Assembly: GCA_000002445.1 (NCBI GenBank)
Contig: CP000071.1
Span: 2,368,001-2,432,000 of the forward strand
DNA length: 64,000 bases
Direction: 5' to 3'
Source: Trypanosoma brucei
Lineage: Eukaryota
Position numbers and translations under genes: made by a program. The notes below the pieces were generated by a model, which was not told where the DNA came from, did not search any database, and saw only the letters and a program-made list of their open reading frames with translations. Below, piece by piece: positions 5,894 through 28,248 of this stretch (positions are counted from its first letter, which is position 1; every line of letters begins with the position of its first letter).

Positions 5894-8011
5894 ATGATGA
5901 GTGCCAATAACTGCACCCCTGATGGAAGCTCCAATAGTTTGCTCCCTTTAAAACCAACCATCTCTAATGATGATGCCGATATGCGCAGGAGGTGGACTCC
6001 GCTGTTAAATTTACTCGCAGTCGACAGTGAAGCTGCCGACGGAACCCCCGCTTCATTAATGATTGTCGCTCATGTCACGTACCGCTCCTCGTTGCTTAGG
6101 CGCGCCCTCCGTCTTTGGGTGAAACACCTGGAAGATTTTTACCGAAAGGAGCAGTGGCGTGAACACCTTGCGAGTGAGTGGTACGGACGGAGGCGCTTGT
6201 TTCTCTTCTTTCGTGCGTGGCAATGGCGGTACAATACGCGATTGCAGCTGGTAGCAAAGGGAGAAAAGGCACAGACGCATTGTTTAATGGCGGCGCAACG
6301 GCGTGCTTGGAGGGCGTGGGCAACATGGCTGTTTGCGCAGCGGGCGGTGCGTAAGGCGGTGTCGAAGTTGCTTGACGAAATTAGAAAAGGTACACGGTTG
6401 AGGTTTTGGTTATTGTGGCGCAGATTTAGTACACGCCGTGTGGCGTACGGGAGGGTTGTGCAGCAGATGAGGCATCAGCATTTGTTGCGTGGGTGGATGC
6501 AGTGGCGTCGGCTGTTGCTTCGTGGGGAAACACGCCGGTTGTTGTCGGCCGTCATAACACTTTATACACCGTGTTCATGGATGCATGATGTAATGGCATC
6601 TTTTCAACCGGCGCTGGCGCGTCAACCCGTACGGTTGCATTCTTCCTCCTCCACATCACGAGGCAATACGTTGGGTGAATGGTACTCGTTTAAGCTGATA
6701 GCCCTCCACTTTTATTTCATCCAGTGGATGGGTGAGACCGCATCACGGCGCGGAAGGCGGCTGCTGAGGTACGAGTCCGCCGTCCAAACCGTCAAACGCC
6801 ATGTTGATATGAGCAGCATAGCGGGTAGGTACCACACATGGTTGCTGTACACCGCCAACAATATTCACAGGCGCCGCATTCTGTCGATGTTATGCAGGCG
6901 TTATTTCCGTAAGTGGACCCTATTCGTGTCCCTGGAAACTCTGTTTAGGCAGTGTCAGCAGACTGTTTATCGGCGTGTGAAATTGTTGACCTTGCTTACT
7001 TGGCGTGGGCGTGCGCAGCACCAGCAGGAACATAAAAATCTCTTGCATGTTGCAGATGCGTTTTGCGCAAGGACGTTGCAGGAACACCAGCGCCGTGAGT
7101 GTTTTGTGTGTTGGAGGGCACGTTTGCATTCGAGGGAGGAGTTTCGCAGGTTGGAAGCAGAGGTACGGGATCGTCGCATGGAGCTCTTGAGGGACTTGGC
7201 AGTTAATCGACTACTGCATGGTGTCCTCCTCAACTTCTGTGAACCTCCTAATGTGAAGGCAGCCGATCCTGTGGGTGGGCGCCATAGTCCCTCGTCTGGT
7301 GTGGAAGAGAAAACTGCAAACTCAAGAAAGGTATCGGAAAGGTATATAACGATAACTCCAAACAAGCGTGACGGATGCAATGCATCGGTGGAGTTCGTGG
7401 AAGATGGAAGTAATTCCCCTAGAAACCCTGTTGATGCATTCCGGCGTAAGTTAATGAATCAGCCTCCAGCTATTCCTCTTGGGTTCGGTTCAGTGGCCCC
7501 ACGCGCTGCTGTGGTCGCTCAACCTCCCGCTCATCGGTTGGATTCGGCACCTTCCGTTGAGATTCAATCAATGTTATCCACTTCCTCTACGTTAGCTCCC
7601 GCAGATCTCACGAAGGCCTCACCACCATCCTCTCATTTACTTTCATTTGATCCCTTGCCGGCTACTTCGGAGGATTCAAACTGTACGACTTCACGCCCTG
7701 ATGTTGCAGAGGGCCGAAGGTTATTAACGGAATATCGTGTCATGTTAGCCACTGCACCTAGTGAGCGGGAGGAGATGCGGATTGTGCGCTCCAAGCTCGA
7801 CTTGTACAAACTGCAGAGGCAACGTGGCGGTGGTTTACTGAACGCCGATGATGAACAGGCAGAGAAAAAACAAGTGCAGCGACTTATATCCCTGAAGCAA
7901 CGGGAGTTGGATCGCCAGGCGCTACGGGCGCGGGTGGAGCAATTGGCTAAACATCTGGAAGTAGTGTTGAGGTCATCTTCTGTTAATAGCACTGCTGCCA
8001 ACCCAACTTGA
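5894..8011 (+). CDS. hypothetical W/R/L-rich repeat protein; N-terminal half carries recurring LLxxWxxWR-type motifs reminiscent of Sfi1/centrin-binding or IQ-like repeats; S/P-rich middle; C-terminal coiled coil
   Basis: 705-aa ORF. Repeated motifs RRLFLFFRAWQWRY, AAQRRAWRAWATWLF, TRLRFWLLWRRFS and HLLRGWMQWRRLL at ~30-aa spacing. Confidence 0.5.
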   Translation: MMSANNCTPDGSSNSLLPLKPTISNDDADMRRRWTPLLNLLAVDSEAADGTPASLMIVAHVTYRSSLLRRALRLWVKHLEDFYRKEQWREHLASEWYGRRRLFLFFRAWQWRYNTRLQLVAKGEKAQTHCLMAAQRRAWRAWATWLFAQRAVRKAVSKLLDEIRKGTRLRFWLLWRRFSTRRVAYGRVVQQMRHQHLLRGWMQWRRLLLRGETRRLLSAVITLYTPCSWMHDVMASFQPALARQPVRLHSSSSTSRGNTLGEWYSFKLIALHFYFIQWMGETASRRGRRLLRYESAVQTVKRHVDMSSIAGRYHTWLLYTANNIHRRRILSMLCRRYFRKWTLFVSLETLFRQCQQTVYRRVKLLTLLTWRGRAQHQQEHKNLLHVADAFCARTLQEHQRRECFVCWRARLHSREEFRRLEAEVRDRRMELLRDLAVNRLLHGVLLNFCEPPNVKAADPVGGRHSPSSGVEEKTANSRKVSERYITITPNKRDGCNASVEFVEDGSNSPRNPVDAFRRKLMNQPPAIPLGFGSVAPRAAVVAQPPAHRLDSAPSVEIQSMLSTSSTLAPADLTKASPPSSHLLSFDPLPATSEDSNCTTSRPDVAEGRRLLTEYRVMLATAPSEREEMRIVRSKLDLYKLQRQRGGGLLNADDEQAEKKQVQRLISLKQRELDRQALRARVEQLAKHLEVVLRSSSVNSTAANPT

Positions 8012-8681
8012 TGGCAAAAATGCGGATGGGTTTGTGCATATGTCTGTGTGTGTGTGTGTGCCTTAGCTGGCGTTGTGTTTTTACGAAGGACCATATATGA
8101 CAAGCGGCTATATACGTTACATACGTGCACTTTTGGCTCTCATAAAAAGAAATATAATCGTGCATATCTTTGCTTTTACACCCTCAACTGAGGTGCACTG
8201 CGGAGAGTCGCCACCGTGTGCGTATAGCGTATAGGTATAAAGGGACATTGCATGTATGCGTAACTTCATGTTTGTAGGTTTAACACTTTGTATTATTTTT
8301 TTTGTTTTTGGCCGTTGCATTCATGATGCTATTTTCACGTTTTGTTTCATATTTATTAATTTATTTTTTTCTTAACTGTTCCCCTAACACTTCTCTCTTT
8401 TCTCTTCTTTTAACTTTTCACCCACGTTTCCGTTCGGGTGCCGTGTTGGGGGTAAACACACTCCAACGAAGTGGGATACCTTTAAGCACATTTATCGCCT
8501 GTCACGGTGAATAGAGCGGGAGGAGGGAGTAGAAAAAAAAGAAAAAAAAAGAGAATTAGTGGCCGAAGTCAGTAGCAAAGCCCGGGCACTGTTTGTTTTT
8601 CCTTTTTTTTTTAAATATTACTACTCTCGCTTTCTAGTATTATCACTAGTTACTCCACTATTCAGTAGTCCAAACACTGCG

Positions 8682-9626
8682 ATGGGATGTTTTTGCTGCT
8701 GCTGCTGCTGCGCTGTCCGTGACAGTCACGATTTAAAATATGCCACACCGGATCGTGTACCGCCTGATGGGGAACTCTTCCCATGGTATATACAAAATAG
8801 ACAAGGACTTTGGCTTCATTTTCGTGACTGGCCACCACCGCGGGATGTACCGAATGTACGCGGCGTACTTTTTATTGTGAGTGGACTTGGTGAGCATACC
8901 GCCCGTTACGGTGGTGTGGGCCGTTATTTTTCCCGTGAAGGGTTCCATGTGTTTTGTATGGACAACCAAGGCGCTGGTGCAAGTGAGGGCGCAAGATTGT
9001 ACGTTTCGGACTTTGATGATTTTATTGTTGACTTTTTTCTCTTCAAGAGGCATGTATTTTCCCTCTATCCGGAATATGAAGCACTACCCCGGTTCCTGTT
9101 GGGCCATTCCATGGGTGGACTCATAGCTACTCATGTCTCCCTTCGTGATCCTACCGGGTTTACGGGGTTTATTTTCAGTGGACCGGCATTAAAACCCCAT
9201 CCGAAGCTTGCTTCATGTTTCAAGCAGTGTTGTGTGGGTTTAATGTCAAGTTGTGTGCCTAAATTTGGTGTAGGAAGCATAGATCCCAAATCAGTGAGTA
9301 CAAATCGTCAAGTGGTAGAGTTGTTAGAACAAGATCCCCTTAACTTTGATGCTAAGTTAACGGCACGGTGGGGTAAAACAATGCTTGACGCTATGGAATC
9401 TGTATGGACGCAGGTAGAAAGGGCAACATACCCGGTACTGATTTTACATGGCGCGAAGGATGCTTTATGTCCAATTAGTGGTTCACGGAAGTTCCTTGAA
9501 TCCGTGCCAACTACGGACAAACAGTTGATTGAATACCCTGGTTTAGGTCATGAAGTGTTGACGGAAGTGCGCTGGAGGGAAGTACTTGGTGACATTTTAA
9601 AGTTTATTAATGCACACTGTAAATAG
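8682..9626 (+). CDS. alpha/beta-hydrolase, monoglyceride lipase / lysophospholipase-like
   Basis: GHSMGG nucleophile elbow (GxSxG), HG oxyanion-type motif (FIVSGLGEH) and overall hydrolase_4-like layout. The track ORF starts at GTG 8559. The first in-frame ATG is 8682, preceded by a pyrimidine-rich tract, giving the N-terminus MGCFCCCCCC. Confidence 0.7.
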   Translation: MGCFCCCCCCAVRDSHDLKYATPDRVPPDGELFPWYIQNRQGLWLHFRDWPPPRDVPNVRGVLFIVSGLGEHTARYGGVGRYFSREGFHVFCMDNQGAGASEGARLYVSDFDDFIVDFFLFKRHVFSLYPEYEALPRFLLGHSMGGLIATHVSLRDPTGFTGFIFSGPALKPHPKLASCFKQCCVGLMSSCVPKFGVGSIDPKSVSTNRQVVELLEQDPLNFDAKLTARWGKTMLDAMESVWTQVERATYPVLILHGAKDALCPISGSRKFLESVPTTDKQLIEYPGLGHEVLTEVRWREVLGDILKFINAHCK

Positions 9627-14664: not shown

Positions 14665-15423
14665 ATGAAAGTGCAGGGGTACGCCAATGTGGTGACACTT
14701 CCTAACGTAACGGGGCGCGTCATAATTGTAGGAGACATTCATGGATGTCGGGCGCAATTAGAGGATTTGCTTCGTGCGGTCTCCTTCAAGCAGGGGAGTG
14801 ACACATTAGTTGCGGTGGGTGACTTGGTGAACAAAGGACCAGATTCCTTTGGTGTGGTCCGCCTTCTCAAACGCCTTGGGGCTTACAGCGTACTCGGCAA
14901 TCATGATGCGAAACTGCTCAAACTTGTCAAAAAATTAGGCAAGAAGGAGTGTCTAAAGGGGAGGGACGCAAAATCTTCCTTGGCTCCGCTGGCGCAATCC
15001 ATACCTACTGATGTGGAGACATATTTGTCGCAGCTTCCGCACATCATCCGCATCCCCGCCCATAATGTGATGGTGGCGCATGCTGGACTTCACCCGCAAC
15101 GTCCAGTGGATCGCCAATACGAGGATGAAGTCACCACTATGCGTAATCTTATTGAGAAAGAACAAGAGGCCACGGGTGGAGTGACGCTTACGGCCACGGA
15201 AGAAACAAATGATGGCGGCAAGCCGTGGGCCTCGATGTGGCGCGGTCCTGAAACGGTGGTGTTTGGCCACGATGCACGGAGAGGTTTGCAGGAACAATAC
15301 AAACCGTTAGCAATAGGATTGGATAGCCGCTGCGTGTACGGCGGGAGACTCTCCGCCGCGGTATTTCCTGGTGGTTGCATCATTTCGGTCCCGGGTTGGA
15401 ACGGAGCGTCGGCGGCGGCCTGA
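14665..15423 (+). CDS. ApaH-like phosphatase / symmetrical bis(5'-nucleosyl)-tetraphosphatase-like metallophosphoesterase (kinetoplastid ALPH-type)
   Basis: GDIHGC ... DTLVAVGDLVNKGPDS ... VLGNHD is nearly collinear with the E. coli ApaH motifs GDVHGC / GDLVARGPGS / GNHD. The protein is 252 aa. Confidence 0.75.
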   Translation: MKVQGYANVVTLPNVTGRVIIVGDIHGCRAQLEDLLRAVSFKQGSDTLVAVGDLVNKGPDSFGVVRLLKRLGAYSVLGNHDAKLLKLVKKLGKKECLKGRDAKSSLAPLAQSIPTDVETYLSQLPHIIRIPAHNVMVAHAGLHPQRPVDRQYEDEVTTMRNLIEKEQEATGGVTLTATEETNDGGKPWASMWRGPETVVFGHDARRGLQEQYKPLAIGLDSRCVYGGRLSAAVFPGGCIISVPGWNGASAAA

Positions 15424-24285: not shown

Positions 24286-25560
24286 TTTTGTGGGTATGCT
24301 GAGCTGTCTGTTGGTTACGACTTGGCATGCAAAGAGTTTAACGATCTGTACAGTGTTTATTGTAGCGAGCACACAGAGCTGAGGTGTGTAATCAAGAACT
24401 GTATCAAGTTAACAAACAATTTAAATTCTTTTATATGCCTTCTTTCCTTTTTCCACTCTTCCACCTGCCGTAATAGCATTTGTTATATTTGTCATTTTGT
24501 CTGATTATAATTACACTTGATATGTTGTTGCCCTTCCTGTATTCTTGTCGGAGGTAAGTCTATGTCCCTGTCGGAGCCCCGGAAGCGTGAATTTAGGCAA
24601 AGAAGTATCGCGAGGCGCAGCATTTGTGCTACAGTGTTACTCTTATCTTTATGTACAGTAGCCATTTACCTTACGCCCCGTCGAGATAATGGAATGAAAC
24701 ATCGTGAGAAGGCAGTTATGCAGGTACCGAGTGTGCGGAGTCACGTAGTTAACGTTCCCTCCAAATATCCCTTGTGGATACGAGAGGCTCTCGCTTACGT
24801 CCCTTCCACAGTTTTGCGTCAGTGGGAGGATGCCGAATATTTGGTGGTGTTTGGTGTGCCTTCTGTGGACATAAATGTGAGACGGCGACGGAGGCATTTG
24901 CAGCGGATGACTTGTTGGGCGTATGGTGGCGTTGCGCGGCGTGCAAATGACTTCGTGGGAAGTATGCTGCCATTATATATCCTTGCACGTCACCCCGACA
25001 ATAACTACGTCTTCACGTCTGCTGCCTTAGAGGAGGCTGAGAAGTGGAATGATGTAATTACACTTCCAATGAATGAGGGTCGTGTGTCGACCAAAAAGCA
25101 AGTGGGCCAGGATGGAAAATGGGGTGTTGAAGCAGAGGTTGGTATGAGTCGCAAGACATTCATGTGGTTTGATTTGTCGCTGATTGTTTTCTCACGCGCC
25201 GCGTATATTGCGAAAGGCGATGATGACATGTTTTTGCGTGTTCCACAGTACCTTGTTGACTTACGCGATCTACCACGACGAGGGGTATATTGGGGTACGA
25301 TTGATAGATATACCGTTGGCAGAACAAGGTTTAACTACGCTTTTGGTTGGTGCTACACCCTTGCTCGTGATGTTGCTAAGCAGTTTGTTTCTTATGGACC
25401 ACTGCGCAAAGTAGTGAACAGTTCCTCGTCAGTGCTCAGTATGTTTACGATTAAGCGTTTCTATCTTCTGGCTGAGGACGCGATGGTTGGACTAACATTG
25501 CAGAGGGCCGGGTACGCTAGCAAAATACTTTACATTCGGGAAAAGAAATGCTCCTTTCAT
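24268..25560 (+). repeat. ~1.29 kb direct repeat: inter-GT spacer/5' leader (249 bp) plus the first ~333 codons of the GT gene. It is ~100% identical to 26782-28074, and its GT part is also present at 23583-24267
   Basis: Offset 2514 bp between copies b and c (identical minus-strand shadow ORFs 24649/27163, 24749/27263, 25005/27519). Offset 1038 bp between copies a and b. Confidence 0.8.
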
Positions 25561-25734
25561 AACGTGCACGCCGGGCCAACTGTTGTTGCTGTCACCGATA
25601 GTTCCGTAATGGTGCACCATGTTAGGGAGGATGAATACGAGAAACTAAAGCAACGTTTTGCTAATGAGAGGGATGTGGCTCCACGTTTTATTTACAGTAT
25701 TTATGAGGGTATGAAGGGTTTTAGTTGCCGGTAG
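24562..25734 (+). CDS. UDP-Gal/UDP-GlcNAc-dependent glycosyltransferase (GT31, beta-1,3-transferase-like), type II membrane protein, copy GT-b with a divergent C-terminal ~58 aa
   Basis: Motifs RRRRHLQRMTCW (RxTW), YIAKGDDDMFL (DxD) and LAEDAMVGL (EDxxxG). Short basic cytoplasmic tail plus TM (ATVLLLSLCTVAIYL). The track ORF starts at TTG 24517; the first ATG is 24562. It is 100% identical to GT-c up to 25560, then ~75% identical. Confidence 0.75.
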   Translation: MSLSEPRKREFRQRSIARRSICATVLLLSLCTVAIYLTPRRDNGMKHREKAVMQVPSVRSHVVNVPSKYPLWIREALAYVPSTVLRQWEDAEYLVVFGVPSVDINVRRRRRHLQRMTCWAYGGVARRANDFVGSMLPLYILARHPDNNYVFTSAALEEAEKWNDVITLPMNEGRVSTKKQVGQDGKWGVEAEVGMSRKTFMWFDLSLIVFSRAAYIAKGDDDMFLRVPQYLVDLRDLPRRGVYWGTIDRYTVGRTRFNYAFGWCYTLARDVAKQFVSYGPLRKVVNSSSSVLSMFTIKRFYLLAEDAMVGLTLQRAGYASKILYIREKKCSFHNVHAGPTVVAVTDSSVMVHHVREDEYEKLKQRFANERDVAPRFIYSIYEGMKGFSCR

Positions 25735-26781: not shown

Positions 26782-28074
26782 ATGGATGGTGCTGTGTGAT
26801 TTTGTGGGTATGCTGAGCTGTCTGTTGGTTACGACTTGGCATGCAAAGAGTTTAACGATCTGTACAGTGTTTATTGTAGCGAGCACACAGAGCTGAGGTG
26901 TGTAATCAAGAACTGTATCAAGTTAACAAACAATTTAAATTCTTTTATATGCCTTCTTTCCTTTTTCCACTCTTCCACCTGCCGTAATAGCATTTGTTAT
27001 ATTTGTCATTTTGTCTGATTATAATTACACTTGATATGTTGTTGCCCTTCCTGTATTCTTGTCGGAGGTAAGTCTATGTCCCTGTCGGAGCCCCGGAAGC
27101 GTGAATTTAGGCAAAGAAGTATCGCGAGGCGCAGCATTTGTGCTACAGTGTTACTCTTATCTTTATGTACAGTAGCCATTTACCTTACGCCCCGTCGAGA
27201 TAATGGAATGAAACATCGTGAGAAGGCAGTTATGCAGGTACCGAGTGTGCGGAGTCACGTAGTTAACGTTCCCTCCAAATATCCCTTGTGGATACGAGAG
27301 GCTCTCGCTTACGTCCCTTCCACAGTTTTGCGTCAGTGGGAGGATGCCGAATATTTGGTGGTGTTTGGTGTGCCTTCTGTGGACATAAATGTGAGACGGC
27401 GACGGAGGCATTTGCAGCGGATGACTTGTTGGGCGTATGGTGGCGTTGCGCGGCGTGCAAATGACTTCGTGGGAAGTATGCTGCCATTATATATCCTTGC
27501 ACGTCACCCCGACAATAACTACGTCTTCACGTCTGCTGCTTTAGAGGAGGCTGAGAAGTGGAATGATGTAATTACACTTCCAATGAATGAGGGTCGTGTG
27601 TCGACCAAAAAGCAAGTGGGCCAGGATGGAAAATGGGGTGTTGAAGCAGAGGTTGGTATGAGTCGCAAGACATTCATGTGGTTTGATTTGTCGCTGATTG
27701 TTTTCTCACGCGCCGCGTATATTGCGAAAGGCGATGATGACATGTTTTTGCGTGTTCCACAGTACCTTGTTGACTTACGCGATCTACCACGACGAGGGGT
27801 ATATTGGGGTACGATTGATAGATATACCGTTGGCAGAACAAGGTTTAACTACGCTTTTGGTTGGTGCTACACCCTTGCTCGTGATGTTGCTAAGCAGTTT
27901 GTTTCTTATGGACCACTGCGCAAAGTAGTGAACAGTTCCTCGTCAGTGCTCAGTATGTTTACGATTAAGCGTTTCTATCTTCTGGCTGAGGACGCGATGG
28001 TTGGACTAACATTGCAGAGGGCCGGGTACGCTAGCAAAATACTTTACATTCGGGAAAAGAAATGCTCCTTTCAT
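26782..28074 (+). repeat. second copy of the 1.29 kb spacer+GT-5' repeat
   Basis: See 24268-25560. Confidence 0.8.
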
Positions 28075-28248
28075 AGTGTGCGTGACGGACCTGATATGTT
28101 CCCTGTTACTGATAGTTCCGTAATGGTACATGATATTGAGGAGGATAGCTACAGTGAACTAAAGGAACGCTTTGCTAATGAAAGGGATGTGTTTTCACGT
28201 TTTCTCTACGATCCAGGCGATGGTGTGAAAACTTTCGACTGCTCGTAG
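27076..28248 (+). CDS. UDP-Gal/UDP-GlcNAc-dependent glycosyltransferase (GT31), copy GT-c, full length
   Basis: Same motifs and architecture as GT-b. The track ORF starts at TTG 27031; the first ATG is 27076. Its 3' end is identical to the relic at 20153-20341. Confidence 0.75.
   Translation: MSLSEPRKREFRQRSIARRSICATVLLLSLCTVAIYLTPRRDNGMKHREKAVMQVPSVRSHVVNVPSKYPLWIREALAYVPSTVLRQWEDAEYLVVFGVPSVDINVRRRRRHLQRMTCWAYGGVARRANDFVGSMLPLYILARHPDNNYVFTSAALEEAEKWNDVITLPMNEGRVSTKKQVGQDGKWGVEAEVGMSRKTFMWFDLSLIVFSRAAYIAKGDDDMFLRVPQYLVDLRDLPRRGVYWGTIDRYTVGRTRFNYAFGWCYTLARDVAKQFVSYGPLRKVVNSSSSVLSMFTIKRFYLLAEDAMVGLTLQRAGYASKILYIREKKCSFHSVRDGPDMFPVTDSSVMVHDIEEDSYSELKERFANERDVFSRFLYDPGDGVKTFDCS

What the first reader, a model, noticed from the sequence alone, without database searches (positions are those of the whole stretch)
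8559..8720. Monoglyceride-lipase-like hydrolase with a dual-acylation-type N-terminus MGCFCCCCCC
The longest ORF starts at GTG 8559 and would prepend 41 residues encoded by a pyrimidine-rich, UTR-like stretch. The first ATG (8682) gives Met-Gly-Cys-Phe-Cys-Cys-Cys-Cys-Cys-Cys, encoded by (TGC)6 at 8697-8714. Gly2 is a candidate N-myristoylation site and the seven Cys residues within the first 10 positions are candidate palmitoylation sites. A lipid-anchored lipase would be targeted to membranes (flagellar or plasma membrane in trypanosomes) without a TM domain. The (TGC)n triplet repeat is also a potentially length-polymorphic coding microsatellite.
Basis: partly seen in the sequence, partly recalled or inferred. 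Interest (0 to 1): 0.55.

Follow-up and report, generated by a model that had tools for sequence, protein, structure and literature searches.

The report
Lipid-anchored monoglyceride lipase of Trypanosoma brucei
This is the annotated T. brucei gene Tb927.8.8020, a monoglyceride-lipase-type enzyme whose first ten residues (Met-Gly, then seven cysteines) look like a fatty-acid anchor that ties it to a membrane: a credible but fairly ordinary new example of a well-known trypanosome targeting device.

Summary
ATG 8682 opens a 314-aa ORF starting MGCFCCCCCC. The (TGC)6 run is at 8694-8711, not 8697-8714.

The GTG-8559 extension is not coding. In T. b. gambiense a 4-nt homopolymer indel puts that GTG out of frame, yet the protein from the ATG is identical. 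No other ATG lies between 8327 and 8681.

The gene is Tb927.8.8020, a monoglyceride-lipase-family alpha/beta hydrolase:
- Pfam Hydrolase_4, E = 6e-71.
- Human MGLL is the best solved relative by sequence and by fold.
- The triad is S143/D260/H290.

All 11 Trypanosoma relatives start MG plus 2-7 Cys in a hypervariable tail. Leishmania has M[P/S]CCC without Gly2. The nearest non-trypanosomatid relatives carry a hydrophobic N-terminal segment instead.

Published supplementary proteomics fits acylation. Azidomyristate capture of the T. cruzi orthologue falls with an NMT inhibitor. The Gly2-less L. donovani orthologue is captured by alkynyl-myristate regardless of NMT inhibition.

The best reading is a dually acylated (N-myristoyl plus multiply S-acylated) membrane-tethered lipase. 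No direct T. brucei data could be obtained. The target membrane is unknown, and no repeat-length polymorphism appears in four genomes. It is a new member of a known kind, of modest interest.

The parts
8682..9626 (+). Coding sequence of Tb927.8.8020 (314 aa plus TAG stop), a monoglyceride-lipase-family alpha/beta hydrolase
   Evidence: ORF and translation. Exact sequence equals AAZ13561.1 / Q57U43, identical in T. b. gambiense DAL972 and T. equiperdum OVI. Gene ID from PMC2212663. Pfam PF12146 E = 5.7e-71. AF2 pLDDT 93.9. Foldseek top hit is human MGLL, TM 0.84/0.91.
8682..8714 (+). N-terminal acylation-type tail M1-A11 (MGCFCCCCCCA): Gly2 codon at 8685-8687, Cys codons at 8688-8690 and 8694-8711
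   Evidence: Sequence. It matches the PROSITE PS00008-type N-myristoylation pattern. It lies outside the Pfam domain (residues 58-295) and outside the alignment to human MGLL (which starts at residue 23-33). Residues 1-6 have pLDDT below 50. MG plus Cys is conserved in all Trypanosoma relatives.
8694..8711 (+). (TGC)6 coding microsatellite encoding Cys5-Cys10
   Evidence: 0 of 100 shuffles. It is identical in the window, DAL972 and OVI. It is interrupted by TGC to TCC (C7S) in T. b. equiperdum GCA_003543875.
8559..8681 (+). Spurious GTG-initiated extension of the ORF (41 codons). It is really 5' UTR / intergenic sequence
   Evidence: The GTG-to-ATG distance is 123 nt in the window and in OVI, 126 nt in GCA_003543875, and 127 nt (out of frame) in DAL972. 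The protein from the ATG is unchanged. Orthologues have in-frame stops 5 codons (T. cruzi) and 23 codons (T. vivax) upstream of their ATG.
8596..8637 (+). Proximal polypyrimidine tracts (8596-8612, 8624-8635) and the first downstream AG (8636-8637): the predicted spliced-leader acceptor region, giving a 5' UTR of about 44 nt
   Evidence: This is a prediction from the kinetoplastid rule (polyY tract, then first AG) and was not mapped. A distal tract at 8390-8411 with its first AG at 8470 is the alternative. Either choice leaves AUG 8682 as the first AUG.
9102..9116 (+). Nucleophile elbow G141-H-S143-M-G145 (GXSXG); the catalytic Ser143 codon is at 9108-9110
   Evidence: It aligns to human MGLL Ser122. 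It is invariant in 56 homologues.
9459..9461 (+). Catalytic Asp260
   Evidence: It aligns to human MGLL Asp239 and is invariant.
9549..9551 (+). Catalytic His290
   Evidence: It aligns to human MGLL His269 and is invariant.
9216..9254 (+). Lid/cap helix segment with four Cys (C179, C183, C184, C191). C179, C183 and C184 are unique to the chr8 copy
   Evidence: Model helix 179-191. Alignment columns. It is a possible extra acylation or redox site, which is inference only.

Best explanation
The gene encodes an active monoglyceride-lipase-family serine hydrolase, translated from AUG 8682.

Proposed mechanism:
1. After the initiator Met is removed, Gly2 is co-translationally N-myristoylated by NMT.
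2. The weak membrane affinity this gives brings the adjacent cysteine string (C3, C5-C10) to membrane-bound DHHC palmitoyl-acyltransferases.
3. These enzymes S-acylate several of the cysteines.
4. The globular hydrolase domain is then held on the cytosolic face of a membrane by a flexible, multiply lipidated 10-residue tail. No transmembrane segment is involved, and the enzyme sits next to its lipid substrates.

What is shown: the start codon, the fold, the triad, the unstructured tail, conservation of MG plus Cys across Trypanosoma, and acyl-probe capture of two orthologues.

What is inferred: acylation of the T. brucei protein itself, the number of acylated cysteines, the target membrane and the substrate.

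Evolutionary reading (inferred from an unbootstrapped tree): the lipid tail replaced an ancestral hydrophobic N-terminal anchor at the base of the trypanosomatids. Leishmania later lost Gly2 and kept only S-acylation.
For: **Start codon.**
- There is no ATG in any frame between 8327 and 8681.
- The GTG extension is frame-shifted in DAL972 while the protein is identical.
- In-frame stops lie just upstream of the ATG in T. cruzi and T. vivax.

**Enzyme.**
- Pfam Hydrolase_4, 239 bits.
- Human MGLL at E = 4e-41, with S122/D239/H269 aligned to S143/D260/H290.
- The triad is invariant in 56 homologues.
- AF2 pLDDT 93.9 and pTM 0.92. Foldseek TM is 0.84/0.91 to human MGLL.
- The L. mexicana orthologue LmxM.30.1140 is labelled by fluorophosphonate activity probes (PMC12117450).

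**Tail.**
- Residues 1-6 have pLDDT below 50.
- There is no TM-like segment.
- All 11 Trypanosoma sequences have MG. Ten fit the PS00008 pattern; the exception is T. conorhini, which has Pro at the position the pattern requires to be S/T/A/G/C/N. All carry 2-7 Cys, although the tail is otherwise hypervariable in sequence and length; Cys makes up 38% of tail residues.

**Published data on orthologues.**
- T. cruzi Q4CSM0 (MGSCCSCC): azidomyristate pull-down falls dose-dependently with the NMT inhibitor DDD85646 (values as tabulated -0.34 at 2xEC50 and -1.10 at 8xEC50, two comparisons flagged significant; PMC4974623 Table S4).
- L. donovani LdBPK_311150.1 (MPCCCSGGHC, no Gly2): absent from the myristate controls, present in 4 of 4 YnMyr pull-downs, and unchanged by two NMT inhibitors. 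The authors' CSS-Palm run scores C3, C4, C5 and C10 well above threshold (PMC4372256 Tables S1, S3, S4).

**Precedent.** Mammalian ABHD17 alpha/beta hydrolases are targeted to membranes by a palmitoylated N-terminal Cys cluster (PMC4755737).
Against: - No direct T. brucei lipidation, localisation or SL-site data could be retrieved. The T. brucei lipidation and palmitoylome papers are not held. The held TrypTag and SL-trapping supplement files do not contain the gene.
- The gene is not in the held supplement of the 2007 TriTryp N-myristoylation prediction paper (PMC1885993).
- Residues 7-10 are Cys rather than the hydrophilic or basic residues typical of strong NMT substrates. Position 6 is Cys rather than the preferred Ser.
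- T. cruzi Q4CSM0 occurs in Supplementary Table S2's file only in the inhibitor table (Table S4), so it is not in the table of proteins enriched over controls.
- For a lipase, capture by a fatty-acid analogue could in principle reflect an acyl-enzyme adduct rather than lipidation.
- Several trypanosomatids (Leptomonas, Strigomonas, P0021, P0025) lack both Gly2 and Cys, so the anchor is not indispensable to the family.
Confidence: 0.75

Rival explanations
1. S-acylation only. The cysteine string is palmitoylated but Gly2 is not myristoylated in T. brucei, as must be the case for the Gly2-less Leishmania orthologues. Membrane capture would rely on the hydrophobic Cys/Phe tail or on the lid helix.
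For: Leishmania and Porcisia orthologues have M[P/S]CCC without Gly2. The L. donovani protein is still captured by YnMyr independently of NMT. The T. brucei tail has Cys rather than Ser at position 6 and no hydrophilic residues at positions 7-10.
Against: Gly2 is kept in 11 of 11 Trypanosoma sequences within an otherwise hypervariable tail. Ten of them fit the PS00008 pattern. Labelling of the T. cruzi orthologue falls with an NMT inhibitor.
Confidence: 0.12
2. The cysteine run is a neutral microsatellite expansion with no targeting role, and the enzyme is soluble and cytosolic like mammalian MGLL.
For: Cys5-Cys10 are encoded by a pure (TGC)6 repeat. One strain tolerates a C7S change. Some trypanosomatid orthologues have no Cys in the tail.
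Against: Cys clusters next to Gly2 occur in all Trypanosoma orthologues. Where DNA was read (chr4 copy, T. cruzi, T. vivax) the codons are mixed or non-repeat: TGC TGT TCC TGC TGC in the chr4 copy, and TGC TGC TCT TGC TGC in T. cruzi. T. congolense shares the MGC.F..CCCCC layout, so the string predates the brucei/congolense split. Two orthologues are captured by acyl probes.
Confidence: 0.05
3. The cysteine-rich N-terminus is a metal-binding or redox-sensing cluster, or a short signal peptide or signal anchor, rather than an acylation site.
For: There are seven Cys in eight residues. The stretch GCFCCCCCCAV is moderately hydrophobic. Human MGLL is known (from my own recollection of the literature, not checked here) to be regulated through cysteine oxidation.
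Against: The number and spacing of Cys vary from 2 to 7 among close orthologues, with no fixed ligand geometry. The tail is predicted to be disordered. The best 17-residue hydropathy in the tail is 0.84, against 1.8-2.8 in relatives with real hydrophobic anchors. Orthologue tails such as MGSCCSCCDASH are too short and too polar for a signal sequence.
Confidence: 0.04
4. Translation starts at GTG 8559 and gives a 355-aa protein whose Cys string is internal.
For: It is the longest ORF. The distal polyY/AG site (AG at 8470) would place the GTG within the mRNA.
Against: A 4-nt indel puts the GTG out of frame in DAL972 with an identical downstream protein. The extension is a T/A homopolymer-rich tract that varies in length between strains. 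It has no counterpart in the paralogue or the orthologues, which have in-frame stops close to their ATG. GenBank annotates 314 aa.
Confidence: 0.02

Closest known systems
Dually acylated (N-myristoyl + S-palmitoyl) trypanosomatid proteins: T. brucei calflagins and CAP5.5, T. cruzi FCaBP, Leishmania HASPB, SMP-1 and PPEF phosphatase
   Same: It has the same N-terminal grammar, Met-Gly-(Cys/Ser)-x-x-(Ser/Cys) with Cys close to Gly2. It is a cytosolic protein without a TM segment. The T. cruzi orthologue sits in the same NMT-inhibitor-responsive table as PPEF-type phosphatase and calpain-like proteins. Dual acylation of HASPB, CAP5.5 and PPEF is described in PMC4372256 and PMC1885993.
   Different: The cargo is a lipid hydrolase, not a Ca-sensor, calpain-like protein or phosphatase. 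The known examples have one or two Cys, whereas this one has seven in eight residues. Acylation has not been shown experimentally for this T. brucei protein.
Mammalian ABHD17A/B/C (FAM108) depalmitoylases
   Same: [quoted passage not shown] Deleting the ABHD17A tail makes the enzyme cytosolic and inactive on its substrates (PMC4755737).
   Different: It is not the same subfamily. The window protein's closest solved relatives by sequence and fold are MGLs. Published reciprocal BLAST assigns other T. brucei genes (Tb927.9.10970, Tb927.1.4780) as the ABHD17 homologues (PMC9693859). From my own knowledge, ABHD17 has no Gly2 myristoylation site. Thioesterase activity is untested here.
Human monoglyceride lipase MGLL (PDB 3HJU, 3PE6), M. 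tuberculosis Rv0183 and yeast Yju3p
   Same: It shares about 32% identity, the same fold and cap, the GHSMG elbow and the Ser-Asp-His triad.
   Different: Human MGLL has no counterpart of residues 1-22 and no lipid anchor. From my own knowledge, it binds membranes peripherally through its cap helix.
Tb927.4.4360, the chr4 paralogue from the chr4/chr8 segmental duplication
   Same: It is 79% identical, with the same architecture and an MGCCSCC N-terminus. The pair is listed as duplicates in PMC2212663.
   Different: The chr8 copy has seven tail Cys against four, and three extra Cys in the lid helix. It also has a longer branch, in line with the published rate asymmetry toward the chr8 copy.

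Membership tests
Monoglyceride lipase / Hydrolase_4 (PF12146) alpha/beta hydrolases | Profile match above the curated threshold | tested here: met
   PF12146 scores 239 bits against a cut-off of 27, covering residues 58-295 and profile positions 2-237 of 239.
Monoglyceride lipase / Hydrolase_4 (PF12146) alpha/beta hydrolases | GXSXG nucleophile elbow and a Ser-Asp-His triad at the MGLL positions | tested here: met
   S143/D260/H290 align with human S122/D239/H269. They are invariant in 56 homologues.
Monoglyceride lipase / Hydrolase_4 (PF12146) alpha/beta hydrolases | Alpha/beta fold with an MGL-type cap | tested here: met
   AF2 pLDDT is 93.9. The top 33 Foldseek PDB hits are all MGLs, with TM up to 0.84/0.92.
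Monoglyceride lipase / Hydrolase_4 (PF12146) alpha/beta hydrolases | Hydrolysis of monoacylglycerol | not testable with these tools
   The only indirect evidence is that the L. mexicana orthologue reacts with fluorophosphonate probes, so it is an active serine hydrolase. Substrate specificity is unknown.
Dually acylated N-terminal (SH4-like) membrane anchors | Gly immediately after the true initiator Met | tested here: met
   AUG 8682 is the first AUG for any SL site downstream of 8326. The GTG extension is excluded.
Dually acylated N-terminal (SH4-like) membrane anchors | NMT-compatible residues (PROSITE PS00008: G-{EDRKHPFYW}-x(2)-[STAGCN]-{P}) | tested here: met
   G-C-F-C-C-C fits the pattern, as do 10 of the 11 Trypanosoma sequences; T. 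conorhini does not. A dedicated NMT predictor could not be run.
Dually acylated N-terminal (SH4-like) membrane anchors | Cys within a few residues of Gly2 | tested here: met
   C3 and C5-C10.
Dually acylated N-terminal (SH4-like) membrane anchors | Conservation of the motif in orthologues | tested here: met
   The motif is present in all Trypanosoma sequences, in Phytomonas and in some unnamed trypanosomatids. Gly2 is lost in Leishmania but the Cys residues are kept. Both are lost in a few lineages.
Dually acylated N-terminal (SH4-like) membrane anchors | NMT-dependent myristate and hydroxylamine-labile palmitate demonstrated on the protein | not testable with these tools
   Evidence exists only for orthologues: T. 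cruzi Q4CSM0 responds to an NMT inhibitor, and L. donovani LdBPK_311150.1 is tagged independently of NMT. T. brucei datasets are not held.
ABHD17-type depalmitoylases | Closest sequence or fold relationship to ABHD17 | tested here: not met
   The best relatives are MGLs. The published T. brucei ABHD17 homologues are other genes. ABHD17 has no solved structure among the PDB hits, so no direct comparison was run.
ABHD17-type depalmitoylases | Acyl-protein thioesterase activity | not testable with these tools
   No assay was possible.
Length-polymorphic coding microsatellite | Repeat-number variation between strains | tested here: not met
   All four Trypanozoon genomes have six repeat units. One carries an interrupting point change, TGC to TCC. 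A sample of four is too small to exclude variation.

The most novel reading that the evidence does not exclude
The Cys-string MGL paralogues (Tb927.8.8020 and Tb927.4.4360) would be membrane-resident acyl-protein thioesterases. They would be the still unidentified palmostatin-B-sensitive depalmitoylases of T. brucei. They would work like mammalian ABHD17, which is tethered by its own palmitoylated N-terminal Cys cluster next to its substrates, although by descent they are monoglyceride lipases. In this reading the extreme 7-Cys string and the three new lid cysteines of the chr8 copy are a self-regulated, dynamically acylated anchor.
Probability: 0.06. Interest if true: 0.7.

Novelty: new member of a known kind. 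Interest (0 to 1): 0.3.

Why it matters
If confirmed, this places a neutral-lipid or lysolipid hydrolase on a defined membrane face in trypanosomes by lipidation rather than by a TM helix. It would add a metabolic enzyme to the NMT and PAT substrate lists, which matters because NMT is a validated drug target in these parasites.

The family also offers a clean natural series for studying how membrane anchors are exchanged in evolution:
- a hydrophobic N-terminal segment in the outgroup relatives;
- MG plus Cys in Trypanosoma;
- Cys only in Leishmania;
- nothing in a few lineages.

The two T. brucei paralogues differ mainly in cysteine load, four against seven in the tail. That gives a simple test of whether acyl-chain number tunes the destination. 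None of this changes current concepts, and the gene and its start codon are already annotated correctly.

Tried and rejected
**Searches for direct T. brucei evidence that found nothing**
- The T. brucei lipidation paper (Wright 2016, PMC4906374) and the palmitoylome paper (Emmer 2011, PMC3067466) are not held.
- The held TrypTag supplementary files do not contain Tb927.8.8020 or Tb927.4.4360.
- The held spliced-leader-trapping supplements (Nilsson 2010) do not contain the gene.
- The held supplement of the 2007 TriTryp N-myristoylation prediction paper does not list it.
- Full-text searches by gene ID and synonyms found only the chr4/chr8 duplication paper and one Leishmania ABPP paper. UniProt ID Q57U43 found nothing.
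- PMC9693859 has no held supplement.

**Ideas considered and dropped**
- A peroxisomal or glycosomal targeting signal was considered because a review says monoglyceride lipase carries a PTS in many euglenozoans. The C-terminus ...NAHCK is not PTS1-like. The conserved R-L-x4-H-x-L segment in relatives is one residue off the PTS2 spacing, judged by inspection.
- A tandem second copy inside the window was considered. tblastn finds only the one locus; the paralogue is on chr4.
- DNA for the TREU927 chr4 paralogue could not be fetched by exact protein. The T. equiperdum copies were used instead.
- The next in-frame ATG (Met93) was rejected as a start, because it would delete core strands of the fold.
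Full report
**1. Observation.**
The window between 8100 and 9900 was read directly and its ORFs were listed. The longest ORF runs from GTG 8559 to the stop at 9624-9626, 355 aa. The first ATG in that frame is at 8682 and reads ATG GGA TGT TTT TGC TGC TGC TGC TGC TGC GCT, which is MGCFCCCCCCA.

The pure (TGC)6 run occupies 8694-8711. This is the only run of five or more TGC/GCA units in the 64 kb window. No match appeared in 100 dinucleotide-preserving shuffles, even with one mismatch allowed. Seven of the protein's 14 cysteines lie in the first ten residues.

**2. Start codon.**
Three independent lines exclude the GTG extension.
- There is no ATG in any frame between 8327 and 8681. Any spliced-leader acceptor in that 355-nt interval therefore makes AUG 8682 the first AUG.
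- There are two polypyrimidine/AG candidates. The proximal one is 8596-8612 plus 8624-8635, with its first AG at 8636. The distal one is 8390-8411, with its first AG at 8470. Which one is used was not mapped.
- The same locus was fetched from three other Trypanozoon genomes and aligned. The GTG-to-ATG distance is 123 nt in the window and in T. equiperdum OVI. It is 126 nt in T. b. equiperdum GCA_003543875 and 127 nt in T. b. gambiense DAL972. The differences are T/A homopolymer length changes. In DAL972 the GTG is out of frame, yet the 314-aa protein from the ATG is 100% identical.
- Orthologues have in-frame stops 5 codons (T. cruzi) and 23 codons (T. vivax) upstream of their ATG.

GenBank also annotates 314 aa (AAZ13561.1 / Q57U43).

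**3. Identity of the gene.**
The exact protein is on record for T. b. brucei TREU927, T. b. gambiense and T. equiperdum as 'monoglyceride lipase, putative'. The chr4/chr8 duplication paper names the pair Tb927.8.8020 and Tb927.4.4360 and reports faster evolution of the chr8 copy (PMC2212663). Only one copy lies in the window.

**4. The enzyme.**
- Pfam Hydrolase_4 (PF12146) matches at E = 5.7e-71 over residues 58-295.
- The best solved relatives by sequence are human MGLL (E = 4e-41), M. tuberculosis Rv0183 and yeast Yju3p.
- The alignment puts S143/D260/H290 on human S122/D239/H269. It begins only at residue 23-33 of the query.
- These three residues and the GHSMGG elbow are invariant in a 56-sequence alignment.
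- An AlphaFold2 model from that alignment has mean pLDDT 93.9 and pTM 0.92. Residues 1-6 are below 50 and the first ten average 48.
- Foldseek against the PDB returns MGLs in all of the top 33 places. Human MGLL scores TM 0.84/0.91 at 32% identity.
- No 19-residue window exceeds a Kyte-Doolittle mean of 1.08, so there is no TM helix.
- The L. mexicana orthologue LmxM.30.1140 is labelled by fluorophosphonate activity probes in promastigotes and amastigotes (PMC12117450). The orthologue is therefore a live serine hydrolase, but its substrate is unknown.

**5. Comparative anatomy of the N-terminus.**
The homology search and the retrieved sequences gave the series below, which is tabulated.

| Lineage | N-terminus |
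|---|---|
| T. brucei chr8 | MGCFCCCCCC |
| One T. b. equiperdum strain | MGCFCCSCCC |
| T. brucei chr4 paralogue | MGCCSCC |
| T. congolense | MGCMFSCCCCCGVC |
| T. vivax | MGCGLCRVC |
| T. grayi | MGCACSCCSC |
| T. cruzi | MGSCCSCC |
| T. rangeli | MGSYCSC |
| T. conorhini (internal to an over-extended model) | MGSCCPC |
| Three unnamed Trypanosoma-like sequences | MGCCCSC, MGSCCSW, MGLCCSW |

All 11 have Gly2. Ten of the 11 fit the PROSITE PS00008 N-myristoylation pattern; T. conorhini has Pro at the position the pattern requires to be S/T/A/G/C/N. All have 2-7 Cys, and Cys makes up 38% of tail residues. The remaining tail positions and the tail length vary freely.

Where DNA was read, the Cys codons in other copies are mixed: TGC TGT TCC TGC TGC in the chr4 copy and TGC TGC TCT TGC TGC in T. 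cruzi. The cysteine cluster is therefore selected at the protein level and is not only a repeat artefact. T. congolense shares the MGC.F..CCCCC layout, which suggests the long string predates the brucei/congolense split.

Outside Trypanosoma the picture varies:
- Phytomonas has MGCAVC, and two unnamed trypanosomatid sequences have MGICWC and MGCCFS.
- Leishmania and Porcisia have M[P/S]CCCS, with Gly2 lost and the Cys residues kept. Novymonas has MACC.
- Leptomonas, Strigomonas and a few others have neither feature.

**6. Outgroup state.**
The next-closest relatives (43-49% identity, unnamed metagenome or transcriptome proteins) have N-termini about 20 residues longer. These contain a strongly hydrophobic stretch, with a best 17-residue hydropathy of 1.8-2.8 against 0.84 or less in most trypanosomatid tails, and few or no Cys.

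A neighbour-joining tree was built from 284 columns that exclude the tail. It places these proteins as a grade immediately outside a trypanosomatid clade. One of them sits on a 107-kb contig where all nine called genes in the fetched 13 kb are on one strand, an arrangement typical of kinetoplastids.

The most economical reading is that a hydrophobic N-terminal anchor was replaced by a short acylatable tail at the base of the trypanosomatids. This is an inference: the tree has no support values and the outgroup taxa are unidentified.

**7. Published experimental data on orthologues, found only in supplementary tables.**

*T. cruzi.* In the N-myristoylome study (PMC4974623, Table S4), Q4CSM0 'monoglyceride lipase, putative', first two residues MG, was captured after azidomyristate labelling. 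Capture decreased with the NMT inhibitor DDD85646. The normalised ratios as tabulated are -0.34 at 2xEC50 and -1.10 at 8xEC50, and two comparisons are flagged significant. One of its peptides, AVLFLVSGVAEHTAR, matches the orthologue retrieved here. Within that supplementary file it occurs only in the inhibitor table, so it is not in the table of proteins enriched over controls.

*L. donovani.* In PMC4372256, LdBPK_311150.1 (311 aa, N-terminus MPCCCSGGHC, not an MG protein) behaved as follows:
- It was not quantified in any of the four myristic-acid controls but was present in all four YnMyr pull-downs from amastigotes.
- It passed the authors' t-test.
- Its intensity was flat (about 25.3-25.6) across both NMT inhibitors.
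- The authors' CSS-Palm run scored C3, C4, C5 and C10 far above threshold.
- The authors attribute non-MG hits of this kind to S-acylation.

Together these results are what one expects if Gly2 is myristoylated where it is present and the cysteines are S-acylated.

One caveat applies. The protein is a lipase, so covalent capture through an acyl-enzyme species cannot be formally excluded.

**8. Mechanism proposed.**
The steps are those given under the best explanation: Met1 removal, NMT-dependent myristoylation of Gly2, transient membrane sampling, multiple S-acylation of C3 and C5-C10 by DHHC acyltransferases, and stable tethering of the hydrolase domain by a flexible lipidated tail.
- The sequence grammar, the disorder of the tail and the orthologue data are shown.
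- Acylation of the T. brucei protein, its stoichiometry, the destination membrane and the substrate are inferred.

No localisation data could be retrieved.

**9. Comparison with known systems.**
- The tail belongs to the well-known class of dually acylated trypanosomatid N-termini (HASPB, CAP5.5, PPEF). It differs in its cargo and in the unusually long cysteine string.
- By descent the protein is an MGL, not an ABHD17. The published T. brucei ABHD17 homologues are other genes (PMC9693859).
[quoted passage not shown] That leaves room for the low-probability novel reading given above.

**10. Microsatellite.**
All four available Trypanozoon genomes carry six repeat units. One carries TGC to TCC, giving C7S. 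Length polymorphism is therefore not demonstrated, and four genomes are too few to exclude it.

**11. Verdict.**
The gene and its start are already correctly annotated. The anchoring principle is well known in these organisms, and orthologues already appear in published lipidation datasets without comment. It is a new member of a known kind. The modest added interest comes from the anchor-swap series and from the paralogue difference in cysteine load.

Noticed in passing
window 9216-9254 (residues 179-191): The chr8 copy has gained three cysteines (C179, C183, C184) in the predicted lid helix, which reads SCFKQCCVGLMSSC. The chr4 paralogue and all orthologues have P/F, W/L-type residues at those positions. 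Only C191 is shared with other Trypanosoma. This could be an extra acylation or redox site on the membrane-facing cap.
   Followed up: partly
L011:6001-6993 and proteins P0012-P0019, P0023, P0026, P0028, P0029, P0043, P0045: Unnamed environmental relatives (43-49% identity) carry a hydrophobic N-terminal segment about 20 residues longer, in place of the Cys tail. In an NJ tree they branch just outside the trypanosomatids. One lies on a 107-kb contig where all called genes in the fetched 13 kb are on one strand, which looks kinetoplastid-like. Their taxa were not identified.
   Followed up: partly
P0008 (T. conorhini, 395 aa): The database model is over-extended by 83 residues. The orthologous start is the internal ...HRIMGSCCPCLRASH. 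That tail has Pro at the position where PS00008 requires S/T/A/G/C/N.
   Followed up: no
L007:1414-1500 (L. mexicana, upstream of the MGL ATG): In-frame ATGs lie 29, 65 and 106 codons upstream of the annotated MPCCCS start, and no AG lies between the last pyrimidine tract and the annotated ATG. The annotated start therefore depends on an SL acceptor at the upstream 'cacag'. This was not checked against SL data.
   Followed up: no
window 8530-8615: The A- and T-homopolymers in the 5' region of the gene vary in length between Trypanozoon strains (+1 A, +1 T, +3 A in DAL972; +3 in GCA_003543875). This is what revealed that the GTG extension is non-coding.
   Followed up: yes
window 24517-25734 and 27031-28248: Two tandem 405-aa ORFs are 94% identical. 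They diverge only in the last 50 or so residues and have a borderline Galactosyl_T (PF01762) match of 22.7 bits against a cut-off of 23. They probably belong to the glycosyltransferase array described for the chr4/chr8 duplicons.
   Followed up: partly
window 1-64000: All but two of the 21 ORFs of 220 aa or more are on the + strand, and the two on the - strand overlap + strand ORFs. The window therefore lies inside a single polycistronic transcription unit. The 705-aa ORF just upstream (5894-8011) has no Pfam match. The ORF at 14665-15423 is a calcineurin-like phosphoesterase (Metallophos).
   Followed up: partly
proteins P0054 and P0059 (EukProt entries outside the kinetoplastid group): Two more distant eukaryotic MGL homologues also begin with MG (MGSSLSSG and MGAYCCRQ). 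Acylation-type N-termini may therefore have arisen repeatedly on this enzyme family.
   Followed up: no
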